Source: a virus
Lineage: Duplodnaviria > Heunggongvirae > Uroviricota > Caudoviricetes
Virus record (IMG/VR): IMGVR_UViG_2627853678_000006
Span: 1 to 27,962 of that record
Length of the DNA stretch: 27,962 bases
Reading direction: 5' to 3' (one strand)
This document shows positions 1 through 26,827 of the stretch, piece by piece. The position numbers and the translations under genes are program-made. Below the pieces are notes generated by a model, which saw only the letters and a program-made list of their open reading frames with translations, was not told the origin of the DNA and searched no databases. Within the stretch, counting starts at the first letter, position 1. Each line of letters starts with the position of its first letter.

Positions 1-1278
1 TTGAATAACCGCCTGTGTACTTGCTTTATCCAGAATATTCCGTCCAACGTTAGTCAGGGTTGTCAGGCTGGCTGTATCATTCCCCGTAAAATACGGAAGT
101 TTGTCTGCCGCAGTGGCAAGGCCTGCCAGTGCGGTCAGTGTGGCGTCGGCAGGTTGTTTTCCATTGGCAAGGTCATATACAGCCTTCACAGCTTTTGGTG
201 TGGCAGCCTGCGTTTCTGACGTGCTGTTAGTGGCGCTGCTGAGTTGCACGGTGCCTTTTACCGTCAGTGAAGCTGCAGGCACATCCGTTATCTGGCTCCA
301 CGGGTGCGTGTGACTGACAGGTGCCTTACCTGCTGCAAGGTCATATGCCGCCTTCACTGCCTTTGGTGTGGCAGCCTGCGTTTCTGACGTGCTGTTAGTG
401 GCACTGCTGAGTTGCACGGTGCCTTTTACCGTCAGTGAAGCTGCAGGCACATCCGTTATCTGATTCCACGGGTGTGTGTGACTGACAGGTGCCTTACCTG
501 CTGCAAGGTCATATGCCGCCTTCACTGCCTTTGGAGTGGCGGCCTGCGTTTCTGATGTGCTGTTAGTGGCGCTGCTGAGTTGCACAGTGCCTTTTACCGT
601 CAGCGAGGCTGCAGGTACACCTGTTATCTGATTCCACGGGTGTGTGTGACTGGCGGATGCTTTACCTGCTGCAAGATCATATGCAGCCTTCACAGCCTTC
701 GGTGTTGCGGCCAGTATTTCGGATTCACTGTTGGTCGCACTGCTTAACTGAGTAAAACCTTTTGCGGTCAGCGAGGCGTCCGGGTGACGTCGTGACTGTT
801 CGTGCTCTGATATTTTGTCATCCACATACTTGCGAGTTGCCAGTACTACAGCAGGGTCGATTTTCAGGGTGATATTGTCCGTACTGCTGGTAATCAGCAC
901 CATGCGCACGGTCTGGGTGCGCCCGCTGCCTTCAGCCAGTTGCGGTTTATAACTTTCCGGGCAGTTCCCCACGGCAATCAATGCCCCTGACTCATCAAAC
1001 AGGCCCACTTCACGTATCCACCAACCGCCCTCGTTTTCAGGGATCACCTGTTCAGCAATAATCTGGCTGCTGTTCTGCGGGTCGATATAGAGCATATTCA
1101 GCGCAGCCCGGCGTTTCTCATTTACCAGTGCAGTCTGCTTTGCGTCCGGCGTCGGCAATGCTCCGCCGCCATCGCCCACCGCCATATGGGTTATTTTTAG
1201 CGGCACACCAAGCGCGGCGGCGCTGGCAAGTTTCGCCGCGCCAATATCCGTCAGCAGGGTATAAAATTTTGTGCTCAT
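1..1278 (-). CDS. H: Tail fiber protein H, N-terminal part; gene runs off the left edge of the window
   Basis: Manual minus-strand translation from ATG at 1278 gives MSTKFYTLLTDIGAAKLA...MAVGDGGG...YVDDKISEHEQSRRHPDASLTAKGFTQLSSATNS...ATLTALAGLATAADKLPYFTGND, closely matching P2 gpH as I recall it. Frame is open to position 1. Start overlaps the stop of gene I (ATGA). Not in the ORF track because there is no stop inside the window. Confidence 0.85.
   Translation of the reverse strand, partial: MSTKFYTLLTDIGAAKLASAAALGVPLKITHMAVGDGGGALPTPDAKQTALVNEKRRAALNMLYIDPQNSSQIIAEQVIPENEGGWWIREVGLFDESGALIAVGNCPESYKPQLAEGSGRTQTVRMVLITSSTDNITLKIDPAVVLATRKYVDDKISEHEQSRRHPDASLTAKGFTQLSSATNSESEILAATPKAVKAAYDLAAGKASASHTHPWNQITGVPAASLTVKGTVQLSSATNSTSETQAATPKAVKAAYDLAAGKAPVSHTHPWNQITDVPAASLTVKGTVQLSSATNSTSETQAATPKAVKAAYDLAAGKAPVSHTHPWSQITDVPAASLTVKGTVQLSSATNSTSETQAATPKAVKAVYDLANGKQPADATLTALAGLATAADKLPYFTGNDTASLTTLTNVGRNILDKASTQAVIQ
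169..840. repeat. 168-bp tandem repeat inside tail fiber gene H: three near-identical copies (169-336, 337-504, 505-672) plus a diverged fourth (673-~840), in frame (56 aa per unit)
   Basis: Direct reading: the unit beginning aaggtcatat recurs at 169, 337, 505 and 673 with only a few mismatches between the first three copies. Each encodes the phage tail-fibre repeat (SLTVKGTVQLSSATNSTSETQAATPKAVKAAYDLAAGK...SHTHPW). Confidence 0.8.
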
Positions 1279-1880: not shown

Positions 1881-2780
1881 CCGTTCCTCCGTTGGTCACG
1901 CTCCACTGCGAACATGATGCCGCCTGCGTTTTGTTCAGAACCACATCCGCCAGCGGAGAAGCCAGTTCCACACGTTGAACACCCTCAACATGCAGCGCGG
2001 CAAAGATGGCACTACGGCGAATATCCCGACCGAGCCGCGTCTGACTGGCGATGTACCTCTGCAGGCTGACTTTTGCCGCTGCCATTACCGGCTCTGCTTC
2101 CGGTCCCGGATAAAGAAAAATGGTGGCTTCCACACGGTACGGGATGATTTCTGCGCTGCGAACCGTCAGACGGTCAGCCACTGGGCGGACGTTCTCACTG
2201 TTCAGGCTTTCTCCACCACATCCAGCAAATCTTTTTCTGCTGTTCCGTCGCCTTCACGGCTCAGGATAGTCAGTACCACCTCTGCAGGTGCCGGACTGGT
2301 TGCACTGGCATCCGCCACCCGACCGTCGGCGCTTCGGGCATGAAATTCATAAGCGGCAGTTGGTCCCGCAACTGAAAGCCCCTCAAAGGCTGCAGGCACA
2401 CGCAGGCGTAACGCTTCATCGCTTTCCATCACTGCTGCAACGGGCGGCACAGCGTTATTATCAGCAGGCGTCACCGTCAGGCGTTTCACGTTGTAGTTGG
2501 CAGCGATCTGGTCAAGATCGCCGCCCATCGCGTAAGCCACCATTACCGCCTGCGCGGCTTCGTTAATGCGCTGGCGCAGAAGCAACTCACGGTAAGCGTT
2601 CTCCTGCAACAATTTGGTGACGGGTTCAGATTCCAGTTCCAGCGTGCGGATCACTGCTTCCTGCTCATCTTTCGGATGAAGCGCCACAAATTCTGCCTTG
2701 CGTTCGGCAAGCAGCGTCTCAAAGTCCGGCACATCCACAATCTGCGGTGCAGGCAACTGCGAAAGGTCAATCACTGCCAT
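1873..2780 (-). pseudogene. J: Baseplate assembly protein J, interrupted as sequenced by a -1 frameshift near 2202-2207
   Basis: ORFs 2202..2819 (true start MAVIDLSQLPAP at 2780) and 1873..2181 are the N- and C-terminal parts of one gpJ-like protein in different frames. Minus-strand junction reads gag aaa gcc tga; adding one base (e.g. gcc ctg) gives continuous ...LLDVVEKALNSENVRPVADRLTV... Combined length is about 302 aa, matching P2 gpJ. Confidence 0.8.
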
Positions 2781-6108: not shown

Positions 6109-6619
6109 TCAGTTTGCTCCCTGTAAACACCAGGCCATCTCCCGCGCACGGCGGTTATCCAGCCCCTGATTAAACACACCTTTTACATAAACCCAGCGCG
6201 GCAACTGTCGGCACGCATCCGCCCAGCGCCGCTGATTGAGCAATTTCACCAGCGTGGAACTACAGGCATTGCCCGTCCCCACGTTGAAGGCAAACGACAC
6301 CGTAGCGTCATACACCTTCTGTGGTGGCTGTTGCTTCACACACCTTTCCAGTGCCCGCTCCACACGCAGCACGTTGGAGATCAGCCTTCTGCTGCCTGTC
6401 GTTCCGTGATTGTTTTGCCGGGAATGACGCCCGATGTATTACCAATGCCGTCGGTCCAGACACCCGCGCTGCACTGATACGGCTGCAGACGACAGCCTCG
6501 TAATCGGCAATCAGTTTCAGCCCCTCCACGGAGGTGTGAAGCTGCTGAAAACCCGGCAGCGTGGCAGCAATAGCCAGCACGGCCCCGACAAGGCAGCGTT
6601 TAACGATTGATGGATTCAT
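6109..6619 (-). pseudogene. K: Endolysin (GH24 T4-type lysozyme with signal-anchor N-terminus), interrupted as sequenced by two -1 frameshifts
   Basis: Manual three-frame translation. Frame A from ATG 6619 gives MNPSIVKRCLVGAVLAIAATLPGF...LKLIADYE. The conserved core GCRLQPYQCSAGVWTDGIGNTSGVIPGKTITERQAAEG is in a second frame (about 6386-6496). LISNVLRVERALERCV...YDATVSFAFNVGTGNACSSTLVKLLNQ is in a third (ORF 6109..6372). Junctions at about 6493-6499 and 6382-6386 each lack one base in a short G/C run. Confidence 0.8.
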
Positions 6620-10286: not shown

Positions 10287-12051
10287 ATGAACACCACACT
10301 GACACCCGCAGATCTCGATCCCCGTCGGCAGGCCATGCTGCTGTACTTTCAGGGATACCGCGTCGCCCGCATTGCTGAAATGCTGGGCGAGAAAGTTGCA
10401 ACCGTTCATAGCTGGAAAAAACGCGACAAGTGGGGTGACTATGGGCCGCTGGATCAGATGCAGCTCACCACCGCCGCACGCTACTGCCAGCTCATTATGA
10501 AGGAGCACAAAGAAGGGAAAGATTTCAAAGAGATTGACCTGCTGGCGCGCCAGTCGGAGCGCCACGCGCGCATCGGCAAGTTTAACAATGGCGGCAACGA
10601 AGCCGACTTAAACCCTAACGTCGCCAACCGCAACAAAGGCCCGCGCCGTCAGCCGGAAAAGAATGTTTTCACCGATGAACAGATTGAGAAGCTGGAAGAA
10701 ATCTTCCATTCCTCCATGTTCAACTACCAGCGCCACTGGTGGGAAGCCGGAAAAACCAACCGCATCCGCAACCTGCTGAAATCACGCCAGATCGGCGCGA
10801 CCTTTTACTTTGCCCGTGAAGCCCTGATTGACGCTCTGCTTACCGGACGTAACCAGATTTTCCTTTCCGCCAGTAAGGCACAGGCCCACGTCTTTAAGCA
10901 GTACATCATCGACTTCGCCAAAGAAGTCGAGGTGGAGCTGAAAGGCGATCCGATGGTGCTTCCTAACGGGGCCACGCTTTACTTCCTCGGCACCAATGCC
11001 CGCACGGCCCAGAGTTACCACGGCAACCTGTATCTGGATGAATATTTCTGGATACCGAAATTCCAGGAGCTGCGCAAAGTGGCTTCCGGTATGGCTATTC
11101 ACAAAAAATGGCGACAAACCTATTTTTCCACGCCATCCAGTCTGACACACAGTGCTTATCCGTTCTGGTCCGGTGCGCTGTTCAACCGTGGGCGCAACAA
11201 AGCCGATAAGGTGGACATCGACCTGTCCCACAGAAATCTGGCCCCCGGCCTGCTGTGCGCAGACGGGCAATACCGCCAGATAGTCACCGTGGAAGATGCG
11301 GTGCGCGGCGGCTGTAACCTGTTCGACCTTGACCAGTTGCGCATGGAGTACAGCCCGGACGAATACCAGAACCTGCTGATGTGCGAGTTTGTGGACGATC
11401 TCGCGTCCGTGTTCCCTCTCAGCGAGCTGCAGGCGTGCATGGTAGACAGCTGGGAAATCTGGACCGACTTTCATGCACTGGCGCTGCGCCCGTTTGGCTG
11501 GCGCGAAGTGTGGATCGGTTATGACCCGGCAAAAGGTACGCAAAACGGCGACAGCGCCGGATGCGTGGTGGTGGCACCGCCAGCCGTGCCGGGTGGTAAG
11601 TTCCGCATTCTTGAGCGTCACCAGTGGCGCGGGATGGACTTCCGCGCCCAGCTGACGCCATCAAAAAACTTACCGAGCAGTACAACGTGACTTATATCGG
11701 TATCGACTCAACCGGCGTTGGTCACGGGGTTTACGAGAACGTGAAAGCGTTCTTTCCTGCCGTCAGGGAGTTTGTCTACAACCCCAACGTTAAAAACGCC
11801 TGGTACTCAAGGCCTACGACATTATCAGCCACCGCCGTCTGGAGTTTGACGCCGGGCACACCGACATTGCGCAGTCATTTATGGCAATCCGTCGCGCAAC
11901 CACCGCCAGTGGCAACCGCCCAACCTATGAAGCCAGCCGCAGCGAAGAAGCCAGCCACGCCGATCTGGCCTGGGCAACGATGCACGCACTGTTTAACGAA
12001 CCGCTGCAGGGCGAGTCCGCCAATACCAGCAATATTGTGGAGATTTTTTGA
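10287..12051 (+). pseudogene. P: Terminase large subunit (ATPase) P, interrupted as sequenced by two -1 frameshifts
   Basis: Frame 1 (10287..~11650) ends ...RILERHQWRGMDFRAQ. Frame 2 continues ADAIKKLTEQYNVTYIGIDSTGVGHGVYENVKAFFPAVREFVYNPNVK (ORF 11624..). Frame 3 continues RLVLKAYDIISHRRLEFDAGHTDIAQSFMAIRR...NEPLQGESANTSNIVEIF to the stop at 12049-12051. Junctions near 11648-11652 and 11796-11798 each lack one base. Restored length is about 588 aa (P2 gpP about 590). Confidence 0.85.
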
Positions 12052-13128: not shown

Positions 13129-15465
13129 TTACAAATATGTGTTGCTATGTAGAGATGTGTTTATTCCATCTTTTATCTCAATTTTTGACGAAGCATACTC
13201 ATCATTCGCACTATCATCTATATCAAACTCATCTTGTAGATGAAGTGACTCATTTAACGGTTTATAAAACTCACCCATCATCATTTTGTAATGGGCAGTA
13301 TGCTCACTACATTCAAATATCTTCTGAAAAACAATTAAATATTTTTGCACAGACTCCGTATCTAAATTCATATAAAGATCATCACCTGCAAAATGGGAAC
13401 CATCATTAATCCATGACACTAAAGATTTAAATATGATTTTTTCATCACCATAAAAATGACACTCAAGCTTCCTAATATCCATCCCACCTAATATCTTAAA
13501 GTAATTCTCCAAAATCCTTCGCATTGTATTTTGTATAGTATTATTATTAATGTCTGTTCTTCTCAATTCGCACCAGAGCAAATCATAAGACGTTTTTATT
13601 GGGTTTGATTCGCACTTTTCAAGATATGAAACCTTCCCTTTTTTCCTTACAATCCAAAAAGTCTCCTCTTTCATTGCTTGATTACCGGATCTTTTGGTAT
13701 TAAAAGTCAACTCTTTATGAAAATAAATATTATGAGTAAGGAATATAATTTGCTTAATATTTCCTTCATCCTTACGAACATCCTCCATTAAATCTTTAAT
13801 CAACGAACTTACAATAAACAGAATATCACTATCTAAACTTGAAATTGGATCATCAAATACTACAACACGATCATCTAAAACACCTGATGCATTATCACTC
13901 CCTCTAACAAGGCTATAAAAGTACAAAAAAGTGATAAATGTCTTTTCTCCCTCACTAAGGGTTGTACGAGCATTATCTCCACTATCTCTTACTATCATAT
14001 AATGCTTTTTATCTTCGGAGGGTTTTAAGTAAAAATTTTTGAAGCCATAAGAGTCCAGAATCTTGTTAATTTTTGTAATAGTTGGAAGAGTACTGGTTTT
14101 ATTAGACTCAATTGCCTCAATAGCCGAAGTATTTAACATTAACTTCTTTTTGTCTTCTTCTATCCCAGATTTAAGTCCTTGTAACGTCCTATTAAATTTA
14201 TCAGATTTGCTACGGTAAGAAGTTATTTCAGACTTTAACTCCACCTTTACGATATATGCCCATATCTGCTTAGAAAGATTACTAGCCTCTACCTTTCTAT
14301 TACTATATATTTTGTTATTATTATCTATCAATAGATTTGAATCATTCAAAAAAGAAATAAAATCATCAACAACTTCACTTAAGTCACTAAAATGAACTGA
14401 TTCACTTAAAAAATTGCGTTTATTTTTTGCCAATTCAAAATTCTTGTTTAATTCAGATAATACTATCTTAGCCTTATCCTCAAACACTTCATAATTTATG
14501 AATGGAGATTTAATCGCCCTTATATCATCTATCGCCTTCAAGATATTATTAAGTTGATATTCATATTGTAAAACCAATGCATCGATTTCTCTTTTTTTTA
14601 ACTCATATGTTTTATCAAAATATGATGAAAGATTATCAAATATATTATCATTTACATCCTGCTGGCAGAATGGGCACTTGGGATTAGATTTGCTGAAATA
14701 TGTTAAACCCTCCTTAACCCAATCACTGTTATTGAGCATTGTAATTAAGTCTGAAACACTAACGTCTTTTTTCCCTAGAATACGCTCACTCCAAATTTCC
14801 CTACTTAAAATATCATCTATCCCATTGAAGGATGGAATTGTAATTGATACATGTGATGTCAATTCAGTAGAAAAAACAATTTTTGCTTTCTCAATTAACT
14901 CTGCTATTGAGCAAACTTCTGATGTATTATTTTCATACTCAGCCAACACTCTGGCTTTAAATTTTTCACTACTATTCCTTAATCCCTCAAAAGCCTTTGA
15001 GAACACATTGTCATGTTTTACTTTTTGCTTCCAACATGAATCTTTAAAAGATTTTTCATGGTCTTCGATTTTTTTAATAACGCCTAATTCATTATCACCA
15101 CCATCTATTAACTTTCCCTTTGCTATAATAGATTCCATTAGCTTATTTTTTTCTTCTTTAAGAGATATTAGTTTCTCTTCATCCTCCTTAAGATCGCTAC
15201 CAAGGGTAAATACACCTTTAATTTTATCTTGACTAAAATTTCTTTCAACAAAATCTTTATTATATACGTAGCTTATTAAAGATATATTATTTTTCCATTT
15301 AATCGGACATGTTGGATATTGTTCAGGGTCATTAATAATTTTACTTATAGTTGTTTTACCTGCACCATTAGCTCCATATAAATAGTTAAATTTAGAAAGT
15401 CCATGTAAAAGCTGCGTAGGGCCATTATATGAGCCTACCTTGTCAATAACTACCTCTTCAATCAT
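13129..15465 (-). CDS. RloC/PrrC-like anticodon-nuclease-type protein: ABC ATPase with coiled-coil zinc hook and C-terminal nuclease-like domain (function inferred)
   Basis: 778-aa AT-rich ORF with GAGG Shine-Dalgarno. Walker A GANGAGKTT at the N-terminus, CPFC zinc-hook motif in a long Lys/Glu-rich predicted coiled coil, LSEGEK signature, Walker B VVVFDDPISSLD, H-loop FLTHN, then about 200 aa containing R-x3-E (RRILENYF) and downstream His residues reminiscent of the PrrC catalytic triad. Confidence 0.55.
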   Translation of the reverse strand: MIEEVVIDKVGSYNGPTQLLHGLSKFNYLYGANGAGKTTISKIINDPEQYPTCPIKWKNNISLISYVYNKDFVERNFSQDKIKGVFTLGSDLKEDEEKLISLKEEKNKLMESIIAKGKLIDGGDNELGVIKKIEDHEKSFKDSCWKQKVKHDNVFSKAFEGLRNSSEKFKARVLAEYENNTSEVCSIAELIEKAKIVFSTELTSHVSITIPSFNGIDDILSREIWSERILGKKDVSVSDLITMLNNSDWVKEGLTYFSKSNPKCPFCQQDVNDNIFDNLSSYFDKTYELKKREIDALVLQYEYQLNNILKAIDDIRAIKSPFINYEVFEDKAKIVLSELNKNFELAKNKRNFLSESVHFSDLSEVVDDFISFLNDSNLLIDNNNKIYSNRKVEASNLSKQIWAYIVKVELKSEITSYRSKSDKFNRTLQGLKSGIEEDKKKLMLNTSAIEAIESNKTSTLPTITKINKILDSYGFKNFYLKPSEDKKHYMIVRDSGDNARTTLSEGEKTFITFLYFYSLVRGSDNASGVLDDRVVVFDDPISSLDSDILFIVSSLIKDLMEDVRKDEGNIKQIIFLTHNIYFHKELTFNTKRSGNQAMKEETFWIVRKKGKVSYLEKCESNPIKTSYDLLWCELRRTDINNNTIQNTMRRILENYFKILGGMDIRKLECHFYGDEKIIFKSLVSWINDGSHFAGDDLYMNLDTESVQKYLIVFQKIFECSEHTAHYKMMMGEFYKPLNESLHLQDEFDIDDSANDEYASSKIEIKDGINTSLHSNTYL

Positions 15466-15835: not shown

Positions 15836-16837
15836 ATGGGTGGAGAGACTTCGGCTATACAACGAGTCGCGGGTAAGATTTCTGATGATATTTTCTCAGT
15901 GTTCAAATGGGATCGTGCCGCTAGAGCGGACATGAATTGGGATTGTTGCCAAGAGGCTCATTCCAAGAAAACACATCCAAGCGATGTTGTATTTTTCTAC
16001 ATAGATCCATATGAGGAGGAAATGGTCTATCTCAACACAGACCTCAAAAGCTATGCAGAAGGTACTATTGGGAAAAAAATAGTCGAGGGAGCTTTAACAT
16101 CGCTTGCTTTAGCTACCGAATGTGCAAATGTCAGTGAAGAATGGCGATTGAAATATGTTCATGATGATTCTTTAGGTTATAACGTAAGAGGGTTATTATT
16201 CTTATATAACCATGATAATTTATATGATAAAGACTTCTATGAGAATATTACAAAAAAATTAGATCACTCATCTATAAATTGCCCTCCAAACATCAAACTA
16301 CATTTGCTTGACCCTTATAAAATATCAGATTTGATAAACATATCTTCTGACATAACTAAGTTAATTGGTTCAGGAAAACTTCCTCAACCTGATAAGTTCA
16401 CATATTATTATCCAGATCTTTCCCTAACAAGAATAAAGCACCCTATTAATCAGACAACACCTGCAACAATTGAATTATTAACATCACCATACATTATAAT
16501 AAAGCATGAGGCTTTCAGTTGGCTCAGGGATAAAAACCCTGAGGGATATGTTGTTTATTACAATCAACCGGGGGATTCAGTAGACGAATTCGTTTACTTC
16601 TTTGATATGTTATCAACTTATCAGATATTAACCGAAGGTAAACCAATCGTATTACGCCATTGTCACATTCACCCAAATGAAAATGCCATTCATCATTTTG
16701 AAAGAGCGAAAAAGAAATACAGCACAGACTGGCTCTTAGGCGAGGATGAAAGACTTTTTCTTAAAATTGACTTCGACAAGACAGACAAAATTGTTGTTGA
16801 ATATAATCTTGAACAAATCGGCATGGAGCAACGATAA
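15836..16837 (+). CDS. Hypothetical protein, first gene of three-gene operon; possible PD-(D/E)xK-like motif
   Basis: 333-aa AT-rich ORF with AGGAG Shine-Dalgarno. Contains VVFFYID-x11-TDLK and a His-rich stretch RHCHIHPNENAIHH. Stop overlaps the next start (TAATG). Confidence 0.75.
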   Translation: MGGETSAIQRVAGKISDDIFSVFKWDRAARADMNWDCCQEAHSKKTHPSDVVFFYIDPYEEEMVYLNTDLKSYAEGTIGKKIVEGALTSLALATECANVSEEWRLKYVHDDSLGYNVRGLLFLYNHDNLYDKDFYENITKKLDHSSINCPPNIKLHLLDPYKISDLINISSDITKLIGSGKLPQPDKFTYYYPDLSLTRIKHPINQTTPATIELLTSPYIIIKHEAFSWLRDKNPEGYVVYYNQPGDSVDEFVYFFDMLSTYQILTEGKPIVLRHCHIHPNENAIHHFERAKKKYSTDWLLGEDERLFLKIDFDKTDKIVVEYNLEQIGMEQR

Positions 16838-17916
16838 TGGCTAAAAAACTATATTTCGCAACTGATAAAAATATTTATGATGCATTACATCATAAAAGGA
16901 TAACCGCTGCAAAGTTGCATGAATTATTGTTGAATCGAGGTGTGTTTTTATCACCAGAACTCGACAAGGAAATACTAATCGAGGAAATATCCAAACTTCC
17001 TCACGGATTTAATGAATTAGAACACATAAAAAAACTGGTCAAAACATATGACCCAAGGGAAAGCACTACTAGTGTGAGCTTCCAAACCTCAACAAATCAG
17101 GCCGAATTAAAAAGTGCTGCTGAAGCACTAAAAAAAACATGCTCCCCTAGTAAAGGTCAAAGCCTGAATATTGTAGCTAAAAAAGATGGCTCGCTTACAG
17201 TAGAATACAAATATGAAGAAATAGACCTGTCTAAAACTGCATTACGTCAGATCGACAAGCGGAATGTTATAATAGAACTTCGCCCTGGAGCTGACAAAGT
17301 TGAAGTACGTATGCCTCAAAACCCCGAGGCAAAAAAAGTTATTGAGAGCTTGCAAAACGAGCTATCTAAAATCAAGTCCGAACCTATCGAGCGCTTCGAA
17401 ATATCATTACTAGCAATAACTGATCCTACATTGCGAAGTCAGTTTTTTCAGGAATTAATGAATGGTCTACGCGGTTATGAGACTGATGACGTAACAAAAG
17501 TCGAATTAAATCGCAGTACTGATGCTAGTGAGGATGAAGACAAGGAAGAAACTATTGATACCGGATTTGTTAAGAAAGCCGTCCTTAATGGTGAAGGGGT
17601 AAATAGTTCAGCTATATTTTCTCAACTACATGAGAAAGGTTATTATATCGGGCGTATTGCATGGTCTTCAAAGCCGACAAGTGGAATTGGAGACAGAATC
17701 AACGTCGAAGCATTTTTCAAAGACTCAGAAAAATGCTGTGACTTTGCCTATCAAATTAAAGGTATAAACAATCAAAAAGAAGACGGTTTCAATGTAACCA
17801 TTCGCGCGGCAACAGCACAAGAGAAAAAACATATTAGTGAATTAATTGAGTCCGCCGCTGAAAATGCCTATAATATAATAATAGGATCAGAGGTGAACGA
17901 AGATGAAAAAGGTTAA
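16837..17916 (+). CDS. Hypothetical protein, second gene of three-gene operon
   Basis: 359-aa ORF, translationally coupled on both sides; acidic central linker (STDASEDEDKEE). No motif I can name. Confidence 0.75.
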   Translation: MAKKLYFATDKNIYDALHHKRITAAKLHELLLNRGVFLSPELDKEILIEEISKLPHGFNELEHIKKLVKTYDPRESTTSVSFQTSTNQAELKSAAEALKKTCSPSKGQSLNIVAKKDGSLTVEYKYEEIDLSKTALRQIDKRNVIIELRPGADKVEVRMPQNPEAKKVIESLQNELSKIKSEPIERFEISLLAITDPTLRSQFFQELMNGLRGYETDDVTKVELNRSTDASEDEDKEETIDTGFVKKAVLNGEGVNSSAIFSQLHEKGYYIGRIAWSSKPTSGIGDRINVEAFFKDSEKCCDFAYQIKGINNQKEDGFNVTIRAATAQEKKHISELIESAAENAYNIIIGSEVNEDEKG

Positions 17917-18586
17917 ATGGCTTAAGTTAAACATACGGCTTGAGTTTGAAACAGCCGTTAGACGTCTTTCTCTTGATTCTTTTACAGAGGATAAAGGGAA
18001 AGGGTTCATTTTTGATAAAATACGCCATGATTTTGCAAATGGTCGCTTTGTCGAGCGTATTGTTTATCATGATAAAATATTAAGCTTTGACGGAAGCGAA
18101 ACTACCGTTGAAAGAATCGAATATCGCACCACAAATTTTAGCGTGGCTTTAGACTCTCTTCCTGTAATGCAGATTACTAACCCACCCAGAACTTTAAAGC
18201 CTTTTTCGCAGGCTTTGGTAAAAAATCTTGGCTTAGGTGTTAGTTTGGAAGAAATTGACATAAACCCTATAGACTGGCTTAATGAAATATCTTCAAGTGT
18301 AAATATCAATTTAACACAACTTGATATTTCAAGGGTTAGAGTTTCTGATTACGCCACAGCTAAAATGCAAATAATTGGCAGCAATGATCTTAGGAAGTAT
18401 TATAAAGAAGAATTAGAGGGTAAAAAAATAAGAATTGACAGGCTTGTTTGCTCTGTTAATTCATTAGAATATTCCGGTAAGCTCAAGATCACCAATAGCG
18501 GCCTTGCTTATATTGATGTTAGAAATGAGAATGAGTTTACGAAAATCGTTTTTGATACGTTAAAAAAAGTCACCCTTCAATCATAG
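17903..18586 (+). CDS. Hypothetical protein, third gene of three-gene operon
   Basis: 227-aa ORF overlapping the previous gene by 14 nt; followed by a strong hairpin. Confidence 0.75.
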   Translation: MKKVKWLKLNIRLEFETAVRRLSLDSFTEDKGKGFIFDKIRHDFANGRFVERIVYHDKILSFDGSETTVERIEYRTTNFSVALDSLPVMQITNPPRTLKPFSQALVKNLGLGVSLEEIDINPIDWLNEISSSVNINLTQLDISRVRVSDYATAKMQIIGSNDLRKYYKEELEGKKIRIDRLVCSVNSLEYSGKLKITNSGLAYIDVRNENEFTKIVFDTLKKVTLQS

Positions 18587-23424: not shown

Positions 23425-23649
23425 CTATCGTTCTTTGTTCTTACGGTAACGCTCAAGGGGAGATACATTTTTTCGTACCGTCTCTTTAACCTGCTCTCCC
23501 CGTAAAAACGTCCCATCCTTTAGCGTGAAAAAGTAACTGCCATCGCCCGACAACGACGGATAACAACAGAGCAAATCATCTTCAGGTACTGAATAACTCT
23601 CCCCTCTGTAACGAAACTGATAAACCACTTCACTTTCCGCTGCATACAT
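23425..23649 (-). CDS. Hypothetical small protein overlapping the 3' end of the CII-like ORF
   Basis: 74-aa ORF with GGAG Shine-Dalgarno 9 nt upstream of ATG 23649; overlaps the CII-like ORF by about 130 nt. Confidence 0.3.
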   Translation of the reverse strand: MYAAESEVVYQFRYRGESYSVPEDDLLCCYPSLSGDGSYFFTLKDGTFLRGEQVKETVRKNVSPLERYRKNKER

Positions 23650-24332
23650 TTTGACTTTCTCCGTTTCCTCGTGGTCAATTCAGACAGCAATTCATCTTGT
23701 GAATGACATGGATGCCAGCGTTTACCATCCTCACCCATGATCCAGCCGTGACCGTAGTGCATTGCCGGGCTTTGTTTTACCAGCAGCGATGCAAATGATG
23801 GTTCTTTCGTCAGCATAAGCACCTCACAGCAAACCGAATGAAGCACCGAGCCAGTCACGGTATCAACTGCACTCGCCATCGCAGGATTAGCCTGTAAACG
23901 GGCCTGCAATGAAACAGCCGCCAGCGCCATCAGTCGTGTTACAGAATTAATGCTGCTGATCGCATCGCGACGGCCTGCACTGGTTTTTACATCGCCAGAA
24001 ACCGCACCTGCAGCAACACGCCCGATCTCTGCGGTTGCACTCATGACGTAATGTGGCAGTCTCTCTTTTGCCACCTCATTTACCGGTATACATGGCAGGC
24101 AGTGAATCTGAGCCAGAAATCCATCAACCAGTGTTGGGTCTTCAGTGAGATCGGTTAACTGCCAGATATCTGACGCAGTAAGTTGGTGTGGTTGTTCCGG
24201 GTTGAGCTTGTTACGCAAGGTTTGAACGTTCATACCTGCGCGCTCTGCCAGCTTCGCCATGTTGTGTCGTAGGGCGAAGGCCCGGCAGGCTTCATTGAAA
24301 TGGGGATGTTTTGAAATGCGATAGTCAAACAT
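23520..24332 (-). CDS. cII: CII-like transcriptional regulator (186 CII family); C-terminal about 60 aa questionable
   Basis: N-terminal region (MFDYRISKHPHFNEACRAFALRHNMAKLAERAGMNVQTLRNKLNP...) resembles 186-type CII with HTH. At 270 aa the ORF is longer than I expect for this family and its tail is Cys/Arg-rich. Confidence 0.55.
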   Translation of the reverse strand: MFDYRISKHPHFNEACRAFALRHNMAKLAERAGMNVQTLRNKLNPEQPHQLTASDIWQLTDLTEDPTLVDGFLAQIHCLPCIPVNEVAKERLPHYVMSATAEIGRVAAGAVSGDVKTSAGRRDAISSINSVTRLMALAAVSLQARLQANPAMASAVDTVTGSVLHSVCCEVLMLTKEPSFASLLVKQSPAMHYGHGWIMGEDGKRWHPCHSQDELLSELTTRKRRKSKCMQRKVKWFISFVTEGRVIQYLKMICSVVIRRCRAMAVTFSR

Positions 24333-25486: not shown

Positions 25487-26827
25487 TTGCTTCATATGAA
25501 TAATGATATGACTTTTGAAAACAGAGATGAGTATAATAGAAAAATCATTGCTGAAAAAATAATAAGCTTACTCGAGTCCCCCTTAAAAATATCCCCTATT
25601 GTTATCGATGGGGACTGGGGTACCGGTAAAACCGAATTTTCAAAAAAATTAGCGGCATTGATTGAAAAAAATGAATCTGGGCATAAAGTAGTATATATTG
25701 ATGCATTTACTGAAGATCATAATGATGCTCCCATACTTACTATAATGGCTGCAATAGTTGCATTATATCCAGAGAGTGAAAAGAAGGAATTAATATCAAA
25801 GGCATTACCAGCATTGAGATTTGGACTTAAAACTGTACTCAAAGCTGGCGCTGGGTGGATTTTAAAACAAAATGCAGATGATATTGCGGATGAATTCGAA
25901 GATGCTATTAAAGATGCGGCTAACTCAGCTATAGATGGTACTGTAGAAGCACTGCTTGATGATCATATTGAAGCAAAGAAACATTTGCTTGCTCTCAAGG
26001 AAGTACTTGCTGAACTAACTAGCGAAAATAAAATAACAATTATCATTGACGAACTTGACCGTTGTAAACCAAGCTTTGCCATCTCTATCATCGAAAATAT
26101 AAAACATGTTTTTGACACTGAAAATCTTAACTTCTTGTTAGTTGCTAACATCTCACAATTGAAAGCATCAATAAATCATATTTACGGTGCAGGTGTTGAC
26201 TCAGAAAGATATCTTGATAAATTTATAAAATTCACTTACAGCCTGCCAGTGACTTTCACTGAAAACAATTACGATAAAATTTTGGCTTCGAACTCTCATT
26301 TTAGAATGCTATGTAACGAGTCTGAAAGACTAAAAGAAATTGGAGAAAGTAGTATTCATATAGTTCAAAAATTTATCGAACTAAAAGGCTTGTCGCTACG
26401 GGAAGTTGAAACCTTATCAAGATATCTAGAAATTTATCAAATTTTATCTCAAAATGAAATCAGCAATAAATTTATACCAGGCTATTGCTGTTATCGAACC
26501 CTTGCAGTAATTCTTTATTCGTTTGGTCGTGAACTGGCCCTTAACTACGTAGAAGATAAAATAGATGCACAATTAATAATTAATTTCTTCGGTGTTAATA
26601 GACTCCCATATCAGACAGATCAATATAACATCAACATCTACTATTATGCATTATTTGGTATAACTTATAAATATATGCCAGAAGGTTCTCCTTTACTTCC
26701 TTCTGAAAACGATGAAAAAAACAGATGGGCTGAAATAAGTGATTATCATATTTTAAAAGGAAATGCAGGTGTAGAAGACCCTGTTAGAATATTCAAAAAC
26801 ACCTTAAAAGTTTTCTTGCTCCAATGA
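25487..26827 (+). CDS. KAP-family P-loop NTPase
   Basis: 446-aa AT-rich ORF. Walker A in KAP form (IVIDGDWGTGKTEFSKKLA) and Walker B IIIDELDRCKP, the DELDRC hallmark of KAP NTPases. Starts 2 nt after the small peptide gene. Confidence 0.7.
   Translation: MLHMNNDMTFENRDEYNRKIIAEKIISLLESPLKISPIVIDGDWGTGKTEFSKKLAALIEKNESGHKVVYIDAFTEDHNDAPILTIMAAIVALYPESEKKELISKALPALRFGLKTVLKAGAGWILKQNADDIADEFEDAIKDAANSAIDGTVEALLDDHIEAKKHLLALKEVLAELTSENKITIIIDELDRCKPSFAISIIENIKHVFDTENLNFLLVANISQLKASINHIYGAGVDSERYLDKFIKFTYSLPVTFTENNYDKILASNSHFRMLCNESERLKEIGESSIHIVQKFIELKGLSLREVETLSRYLEIYQILSQNEISNKFIPGYCCYRTLAVILYSFGRELALNYVEDKIDAQLIINFFGVNRLPYQTDQYNINIYYYALFGITYKYMPEGSPLLPSENDEKNRWAEISDYHILKGNAGVEDPVRIFKNTLKVFLLQ

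What the first reader, a model, noticed from the sequence alone, without database searches (positions are those of the whole stretch)
10287..12051. Terminase ATPase P is split into three frames by two single-base deletions
The conserved protein continues perfectly across both junctions if one base is restored at each (...GMDFRAQ|ADAIKK... near 11650 and ...NPNVK(N/K)|RLVLKAYD... near 11797). Restored length matches P2 gpP. As given the terminase cannot be made, so the prophage could not package DNA. The second site lies directly 5' of a CCTGG (Dcm) motif, and the first would contain CCAGG if the missing base is G; this hints at a methylation-context basecalling error but does not prove it.
Basis: seen in the sequence. 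Interest (0 to 1): 0.55.

Follow-up and report, generated by a model that had tools for sequence, protein, structure and literature searches.

The report
Terminase frameshifts are Ion Proton sequencing errors
The phage DNA-packaging (terminase) gene is broken into three reading frames in this sequence, but the two missing bases are almost certainly errors of the Ion Proton sequencing run behind the assembly, so the finding is ordinary.

Summary
The terminase large-subunit gene (10287-12051) lacks one G at 11651 and one C at 11799-11800 and reads in three frames. Restoring both bases gives a 588-aa gene identical at all 1767 nt to a near-identical prophage from another read set.

The breaks are very probably not biological. 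The window is contig JXRF01000055.1 of GCA_000832005.1, an Ion Proton, single-read, CLC de novo draft. It carries six one-base deletions and no insertion; four further genes' worth of damage lies in baseplate J, lysozyme (two) and CII. Five of the six sit in G/C runs of 2-3 bases, all in the context A-G(2-3)-C. None of 155 runs of 5 or more bases is affected. This is the published profile of Ion high-frequency indel errors.

An independent re-assembly of the same reads (Logan SRR1765575) has the intact base at terminase site 1 and at one lysozyme site, and a different deletion at the other lysozyme site. No deletion occurs in near-identical prophages or in about 850-1170 complete E. coli genomes.

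The Dcm-methylation idea fails: Ion templates are PCR-amplified. Terminase site 2 is reproduced by both assemblies, so a small chance remains that it is real.

The parts
10287..11651 (+). Terminase large subunit (gpP-type), part 1 in the native frame (aa 1-455). It holds the gpP-like N-terminal domain, the ATPase domain and the first about 42 positions of the nuclease domain. As deposited, the ORF runs on out of frame to the stop at 11688-11690.
   Evidence: Pfam Terminase_5, Terminase_6N and Terminase_6C positions 1-42.
11651..11651 (+). Site 1: a single G where all relatives have GG (CCCAGGCTGAC). The Logan re-assembly of the same reads has GG here.
   Evidence: No complete E. coli genome has this allele. 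In IMG/VR, 1 error-ridden contig has it against at least 120 with the intact allele.
11654..11797 (+). Terminase part 2 (48 aa, DAIKK...NPNVKN), shifted by one base relative to part 1.
   Evidence: Pfam Terminase_6C positions 44-93.
11799..11800 (+). Site 2: CC where relatives have CCC (ACGCCCTGGTA). The deletion is also present in the Logan re-assembly of the same reads.
   Evidence: No complete E. coli genome has it. In IMG/VR, 1 contig (L006) has it against at least 120 with the intact allele.
11800..12051 (+). Terminase part 3 (83 aa, LVLKAYD...NIVEIF, stop at 12049-12051), in the third frame.
   Evidence: Pfam Terminase_6C positions 97-154.
2205..2206 (-). Same kind of deletion in baseplate gene J (1873-2780): GG where relatives have GGG (TTCAGGGCTT).
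6385..6386 (-). Same kind of deletion in the lysozyme gene (6109-6619): CC where relatives have CCC. The Logan re-assembly of the same reads has CCC.
6496..6498 (-). Second deletion in the lysozyme gene. The window has GCCTCG and relatives have GCCTTCG. The Logan re-assembly of the same reads has GCTTCG, a different one-base loss.
23850..23850 (-). Same kind of deletion 26 nt before the stop of the CII-like gene (23824-24332): G where relatives have GG. It produces an artificial 270-aa CII-Fil fusion ORF at 23520-24332.
   Evidence: L007 is identical over 11,052 nt except for this base; also present in Logan contig L029.

Best explanation
The two frameshifts in the terminase gene are sequencing errors, not mutations.

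The window comes from an Ion Proton (semiconductor, flow-based) single-read draft assembly. On this platform some short G/C homopolymers are under-called by one base in most reads of a run. These are called high-frequency indel errors. A consensus assembler then writes a one-base deletion, which splits the gene.

The real prophage most likely carries an intact 588-aa gpP-type terminase, made of an N-terminal gpP-like domain, an ATPase domain and an RNaseH-like nuclease domain. This terminase is identical to that of sister prophages.

What is shown:
- the platform;
- the identity of the window with the deposited contig;
- the pattern and context of six deletions;
- their absence from relatives;
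- disagreement between two assemblies of the same reads at three of the five sites compared, including terminase site 1.

What is inferred: that site 2 (11799-11800) and the sites at 23850 and 2205-2206 are errors of the same kind.
For: 1. Source. L023 and L206 (GCA_000832005.1, JXRF01000055.1) are 100% identical to the window, including every deletion. The genome announcement states an Ion Xpress library, Ion Proton, about 3 M single reads, 101x coverage, CLC de novo assembly and 453 contigs.

2. Same reads, other assembler. The portal protein with a strain-specific substitution is on record only in JXRF01000055.1 and in Logan SRR1765575_182. That Logan contig has the intact base at 11650 and at 6384, and a different one-base loss at 6496-6498.

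3. Relatives.
- L020 and L024 differ from the window by 5 substitutions in 22 kb and have none of the five deletions that fall in their span. L007 has 0 substitutions in 11 kb and lacks the sixth.
- The restored terminase gene is 1767/1767 identical to L020.
- None of about 850 (site 1) or about 1170 (site 2) complete E. coli genomes has either allele.

4. Pattern.
- There are six deletions and no insertion.
- Five lie in G/C runs of 2-3 bases (P = 0.001).
- All five lie in the context A-G(2-3)-C (P = 1e-5, about 1e-4 corrected for the nine flank combinations).
- The sixth directly abuts such a context.
- None of 155 runs of 5 or more bases is affected.
- Six indels among about 11 differences is far above a natural indel share of roughly 10% (P = 3e-4; the 10% figure is from general knowledge of E. 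coli mutation-accumulation studies).

5. Literature. Bragg et al. 2013 describe Ion high-frequency indels. The strand-asymmetric ones are dominated by deletions of C and G, and 82% of them lie in homopolymers of length two to three. Such errors occur about once per 1-2 kb of reference, are mostly not reproduced between runs, and cause frameshifts in assemblies.
Against: - Site 2 (11799-11800) and 23850 are reproduced in the Logan re-assembly. For these two sites there is no direct contradiction from the reads.
- The same site-2 allele occurs in one unrelated IMG/VR contig (L006, 95.6% identical) that shows no other single-base indels against the window in the 3.3 kb compared. That could mean a recurrent real mutation rather than a recurrent error.
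- Real one-base deletions in such prophages do exist. L211 has one in gene J, at a non-homopolymer T.
- I could not inspect reads or flow signals.
- I could not fetch the chromosomal flank of the contig to count indels in core genes.
Confidence: 0.9

Rival explanations
1. Genuine pseudogenisation. The prophage in this strain has really lost one base at one or both terminase sites, and in J, the lysozyme gene and CII. It is a recently inactivated, decaying prophage that cannot cut or package DNA because the nuclease domain is disrupted.
For: - The deletions are in the deposited record.
- Two of them (11799-11800 and 23850) are reproduced by an independent assembler on the same reads.
- L006 carries the same site-2 allele.
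- Single-base frameshifts occur in other prophage copies, for example L211.
Against: - Site 1, one lysozyme site and the form of the other lysozyme deletion are contradicted by the re-assembly of the same reads.
- There are six one-base deletions against 0-5 substitutions relative to sister prophages.
- The context is strictly A-G(2-3)-C and long homopolymers are spared. This is the opposite of slippage or mismatch-repair-deficient mutation.
- There is no IS element, large deletion or insertion in the prophage.
- The platform is known for exactly this artefact.
Confidence: 0.06
2. Methylation-context basecalling error. Dcm-methylated CCWGG sites disturb the signal of a native-DNA long-read platform, and bases are dropped next to them.
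For: - Both terminase sites overlap CCWGG in the intact allele.
- 2 of 5 G/C-run deletions lie at CCWGG, against 3.6% of such runs (P = 0.012).
Against: - The data are Ion Proton reads from an amplified library, which carries no methylation (that amplification erases methylation is established knowledge of the platform).
- The other four deletions are not at CCWGG.
- Given the A-G(2-3)-C context, the overlap is not significant (P = 0.07).
Confidence: 0.01
3. Programmed recoding. The terminase would be made by two ribosomal frameshifts or by transcriptional slippage at these sites.
For: None beyond the fact that the three pieces are contiguous.
Against: - More than 1100 homologous genes are single 1767-nt ORFs.
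- The sites are not slippery sequences.
- The same sort of deletion hits four other positions in three unrelated genes.
Confidence: 0.005

Closest known systems
Ion Torrent / Ion Proton high-frequency indel (HFI) errors (Bragg et al. 2013, PLoS Comput Biol 9:e1003031; PMC3623719)
   Same: - Single-base deletions of C or G in homopolymers of two to three bases.
- High enough in frequency to enter the consensus.
- Not consistently reproduced (here, between two assemblies of the same reads).
- They produce frameshifts in assemblies.
- The density is of the same order: 1 per 4.7 kb here, against 1 per 1-2 kb of raw high-frequency sites in the paper.
   Different: - The paper studied the PGM, not the Proton.
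- Strand asymmetry could not be tested here.
- One of the six deletions is a T.
- The specific A-G(2-3)-C context seen here is my own observation. I did not find it stated in the paper.
P2 gpP / phage 186-type terminase large (ATPase) subunit
   Same: - Terminase_5 + Terminase_6N + Terminase_6C architecture.
- 63% identity to P2 gpP over the full length.
- Followed by the portal gene Q and divergent from scaffold gene O.
   Different: - As deposited, the nuclease domain is split over three frames.
- The restored protein is 588 aa, not 590 aa.
- The prophage regulatory region is 186-like (CI, CII, Fil) rather than P2-like.
Nanopore consensus errors at Dcm (CCWGG) motifs
   Same: Both terminase sites overlap CCWGG. 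The outcome, a one-base consensus error, is the same.
   Different: The platform is wrong: these are amplified Ion Proton templates. Four of the six sites have no CCWGG.
Cryptic (decaying) prophages with inactivated morphogenesis genes
   Same: On paper, several lytic-cycle genes carry frameshifts.
   Different: - No other sign of decay is present.
- The ratio of indels to substitutions and the sequence context are unnatural.
- The read set does not consistently support the deletions.

Membership tests
gpP-type terminase large subunit (Peduoviridae) | N-terminal gpP-like domain (Pfam Terminase_5) plus ATPase domain (Terminase_6N) | tested here: met
   Terminase_5 E = 2.4e-27 (aa 11-68) and Terminase_6N E = 3e-65 (aa 162-382) in the 467-aa first piece.
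gpP-type terminase large subunit (Peduoviridae) | Complete RNaseH-like nuclease domain (Terminase_6C) in one reading frame | tested here: not met
   as deposited, profile positions 1-42, 44-93 and 97-154 lie in three frames. The feature is met (positions 1-154, E = 1.7e-49) once the two bases are restored, as in L020.
gpP-type terminase large subunit (Peduoviridae) | Synteny: P followed by portal gene Q, divergent from scaffold O and capsid N; full-length similarity to P2 gpP | tested here: met
   (gene order). (63% identity over 588/590 aa).
Ion semiconductor high-frequency indel error | Data produced on an Ion Torrent or Ion Proton instrument | tested here: met
   The window is JXRF01000055.1. 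The genome announcement names the Ion Proton.
Ion semiconductor high-frequency indel error | Single-base deletions, mainly of C/G, in homopolymers of length 2-3 | tested here: met
   six of six are one-base deletions and five of six lie in G/C runs of 2-3 bases (P = 0.001). No run of 5 or more bases is affected.
Ion semiconductor high-frequency indel error | Not reproduced consistently; absent when the same or identical DNA is sequenced or assembled independently | tested here: met
   the Logan assembly of the same reads differs from the window at 3 of the 5 deletion sites it covers (the fifth via L029); sister prophages lack all six. For site 2 and 23850 alone, the two assemblies of the same reads agree, so for those the result is inconclusive.
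Ion semiconductor high-frequency indel error | Strand asymmetry or mixed support among the reads | not testable with these tools
Dcm-motif basecalling error of native-DNA sequencing | Reads taken from unamplified, methylated DNA | tested here: not met
   Ion Xpress fragment library and Ion Proton.
Dcm-motif basecalling error of native-DNA sequencing | Errors concentrated at CCWGG | tested here: inconclusive
   2 of 6 sites. P = 0.012 among G/C runs, but P = 0.07 once the A-G(2-3)-C context is conditioned on.
Genuine prophage pseudogene | The lesion is reproducible in independent data from the same strain | tested here: inconclusive
   site 1 is not reproduced and site 2 is, but both assemblies use the same Ion run.

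The most novel reading that the evidence does not exclude
The site-2 deletion (GCCCTGG to GCCTGG at 11799-11800) is real. Both assemblers reproduce it, and it is shared by an unrelated IMG/VR prophage (L006). The sequence just 5' of this Dcm site would then be a recurrent natural deletion hotspot that inactivates the terminase nuclease domain, giving a prophage that is locked in.
Probability: 0.05. Interest if true: 0.25.

Novelty: not a real feature. Interest (0 to 1): 0.05.

Why it matters
It matters mainly as a caution. The apparent inactivation of the terminase, and of J, the lysozyme gene and CII, should not be read as biology. This prophage should not be scored as defective on the basis of this record. 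Extrapolated from six errors in 28 kb, the draft genome may hold on the order of a thousand such frameshifts. If the deletions were real, the finding would still be an ordinary case of prophage decay.

Tried and rejected
- Exact look-ups of the 467-aa terminase fragment and the 103-aa lysozyme fragment found nothing. This was explained later: the Logan assembly differs at those sites, and NCBI annotates pseudogenes without products.
- Two look-ups used wrong minus-strand coordinates and were repeated correctly.
- A scan of GTDB species-representative genomes for the site-1 allele gave 0 hits.
- IMG/VR scans for the other four deletion alleles gave 0 hits.
- The look-up by gpV, meant to reach the Logan contig over site 2205, did not reach it. 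Only the 24 blocks with the longest contigs were read. Whether the re-assembly reproduces the J deletion is therefore unknown.
- I could not fetch the chromosomal part of JXRF01000055.1 to count indels in core genes. The integrase look-up collapsed that contig into similar places.
- Programmed frameshifting was considered and rejected, because sister genes are intact and otherwise identical.
- The Dcm or nanopore explanation was rejected on the platform.

Full report
**What is in the sequence**

- An ORF starts at 10287 and runs to a stop at 11688-11690 (467 aa). It loses similarity to terminases after ...RGMDFRAQ.
- The protein continues in a second frame as ADAIKK...NPNVKN.
- It continues again in a third frame as LVLKAYD...NIVEIF, ending at the stop 12049-12051.
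- Pfam places the gpP-like N-terminal domain and the ATPase domain in piece 1.
- Pfam splits the RNaseH-like nuclease domain (Terminase_6C) over the three pieces, at profile positions 1-42, 44-93 and 97-154.

**Comparison with relatives**

- The 1765-nt stretch matches 1767 nt in 1177 E. coli genomes and in many Klebsiella, Escherichia and Salmonella phages. The gene is annotated there as a single terminase ATPase subunit.
- Relatives have CCCAGGCTGAC where the window has CCCAGCTGAC (G at 11651). They have ACGCCCTGGTA where the window has ACGCCTGGTA (CC at 11799-11800).
- Inserting these two bases gives a 588-aa protein. The restored gene is identical at all 1767 nt to the gene in L020, a Logan assembly of run ERR6576407.
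- P2 gpP is 590 aa and 63% identical. The prophage is of the P2/186 family, with a 186-like regulatory region (CI, CII, Fil).
- Sixty-base queries centred on each deletion found no complete E. coli genome with either allele among about 850 and about 1170 genomes that carry the segment. The best matches are 60 of 61 with a gap.

**The terminase is not alone**

Whole-window alignments to the nearest relatives show six single-base deletions in the window and no insertion:

| Window position | Window | Relatives | Gene |
|---|---|---|---|
| 2205-2206 | GG | GGG | baseplate J |
| 6385-6386 | CC | CCC | lysozyme |
| 6498 | T | TT | lysozyme |
| 11651 | G | GG | terminase |
| 11799-11800 | CC | CCC | terminase |
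| 23850 | G | GG | CII-like gene |

- The deletion at 23850 creates a false 270-aa CII-Fil fusion ORF.
- L020 and L024 differ from the window by only five substitutions over 22 kb and have none of the five deletions in their span.
- L007 (GCA_013024345.1) is identical over 11,052 nt except for the base at 23850.

**Source of the window**

- A look-up by the AAA ATPase of the window returned contig JXRF01000055.1 of GCA_000832005.1. It is 100% identical to the window, deletions included. NCBI calls no product for the terminase, lysozyme or CII/Fil genes there.
- It was sequenced from an Ion Xpress fragment library on an Ion Proton, with about 3 million single reads at 101-fold coverage.
- It was assembled de novo with CLC into 453 contigs.

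**Same reads, second assembler**

- The window's portal protein carries a strain-specific substitution. It is on record in only two places: JXRF01000055.1 and contig 182 of the Logan assembly of run SRR1765575. That run is therefore this strain's read set.
- Against the window, the Logan contig has the intact GG at terminase site 1 and the intact CCC at 6385.
- At the second lysozyme site it has GCTTCG. The window has GCCTCG and all relatives have GCCTTCG.
- It keeps the deletion at terminase site 2, giving a 592-aa gene call.
- Another Logan contig (L029) keeps the deletion at 23850.
- In total, two assemblers given the same reads disagree at three of the five sites that could be compared. 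Where they disagree, one shows the intact allele or a different error.

**Pattern**

- In the restored window, G/C runs of two or three bases hold 18.5% of the bases, yet five of the six deletions fall in them (P = 0.001).
- All five lie in the oriented context A-G(2-3)-C, which applies to 10% of such runs (P = 1e-5, about 1e-4 after allowing for nine flank combinations).
- The sixth deletion abuts such a context (GAAGGCT).
- None of the 155 runs of five or more bases is affected.
- Six indels among roughly eleven differences from sister prophages is far above a natural indel share of about one in ten (P = 3e-4; the one-in-ten figure rests on general knowledge of E. coli mutation-accumulation work).
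- Bragg et al. 2013 (PMC3623719) describe this class of Ion error. High-frequency indels occur about once per 1-2 kb of reference. The strand-asymmetric ones are dominated by deletions of C and G, and 82% of them lie in homopolymers of two to three bases. Most are not reproduced between runs, and they cause frameshifts in assemblies.

**The Dcm idea**

- Both terminase sites do overlap CCWGG in the intact allele. Two of five is more than the 3.6% expected among G/C runs (P = 0.012).
- However, CCAGGC and its complement contain the A-GG-C context. Conditioning on that context gives P = 0.07.
- The other four sites have no CCWGG.
- Ion templates are amplified copies without methylation (platform; the consequence is established knowledge).

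**Recurrence elsewhere**

- In IMG/VR, each deletion allele of the terminase occurs once, against at least 120 contigs with each intact allele.
- The contig sharing site 1 (L005) has about thirty homopolymer deletions in 8 kb and is plainly error-ridden.
- The contig sharing site 2 (L006, 95.6% identical) shows no other single-base indels in the 3.3 kb compared.
- This fits site-specific systematic error. For site 2 it also leaves room for a recurrent real mutation.
- The other four alleles were not found in IMG/VR.

**Verdict**

The best explanation is Ion Proton homopolymer under-calling carried into a consensus assembly.

- Confidence is about 0.9 overall.
- It is higher for site 1, which the re-assembly contradicts directly.
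- It is lower for site 2, which both assemblies share.

The real prophage very probably has an intact terminase. Decisive tests are read-level counts per strand at the six sites, and Sanger or Illumina resequencing of the strain. Interest is low and nothing here is new biology.

Noticed in passing
window 13129-15465 (-): A 778-aa AAA_13-family ATPase sits between the portal gene and the replication region, the position of the variable P2 hotspot next to cos. It matches the PADLOC candidate defence family PDC-S06 over its full length (E = 1e-266), with weaker matches to LmuB and PrrC.
   Followed up: partly
window 15836-18586 (+): Three genes (333, 359 and 227 aa) match PADLOC Hp1, Hp2 and Hp3 end to end, and Pfam PDDEXK_GAPS4 and GAPS4b_N. 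This is a GAPS4-type anti-phage system directly beside the PDC-S06 gene. The pairing of both systems in one hotspot appears in only some relatives (L020, L022, L024, L025); others carry one or the other.
   Followed up: partly
window 25496-26827 (+): A KAP-family P-loop NTPase (443 aa) lies between the CI repressor and the integrase. It matches the PADLOC candidate PDC-S20 (E = 1e-171) and, weakly, PifA and QatA. This is a second defence-cargo position in the prophage.
   Followed up: partly
window 23520-24332 (-): An apparent 270-aa CII-Fil fusion ORF is created by the one-base deletion at 23850. The Logan assembly of the same reads also calls it as a gene, so it has entered protein collections as a spurious fusion protein.
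   Followed up: yes
window 167-744: The tail-fibre gene holds 168-nt tandem-like repeats. Relatives L001 and L002 differ by one 168-nt unit, and other relatives have fibres of 583, 639 and 695 aa. The window, and the source contig, begin inside this repeat region, which probably explains why the assembly broke there.
   Followed up: no
L211 (GCA_012868495.1) about 5109, equivalent to window 2593: A sister prophage from another assembly lacks a non-homopolymer T in gene J, and J is not called there. This may be a genuine frameshift, and it contrasts with the homopolymer-context deletions of the window.
   Followed up: partly
L005 (IMGVR_UViG_2744054627_000009): This IMG/VR contig has about thirty one-base homopolymer deletions in 8 kb relative to the window, nearly all in runs of 4-6 bases. 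It is a heavily error-laden public viral contig.
   Followed up: partly
whole window / source record: The source strain is published under the name E24377A, although it was isolated from a well in India. The closest complete-genome matches to this prophage are other strains (ECamp52, 23CRST022), and the reference E24377A is not among the top 30. The strain name may reflect a best database match rather than identity.
   Followed up: no
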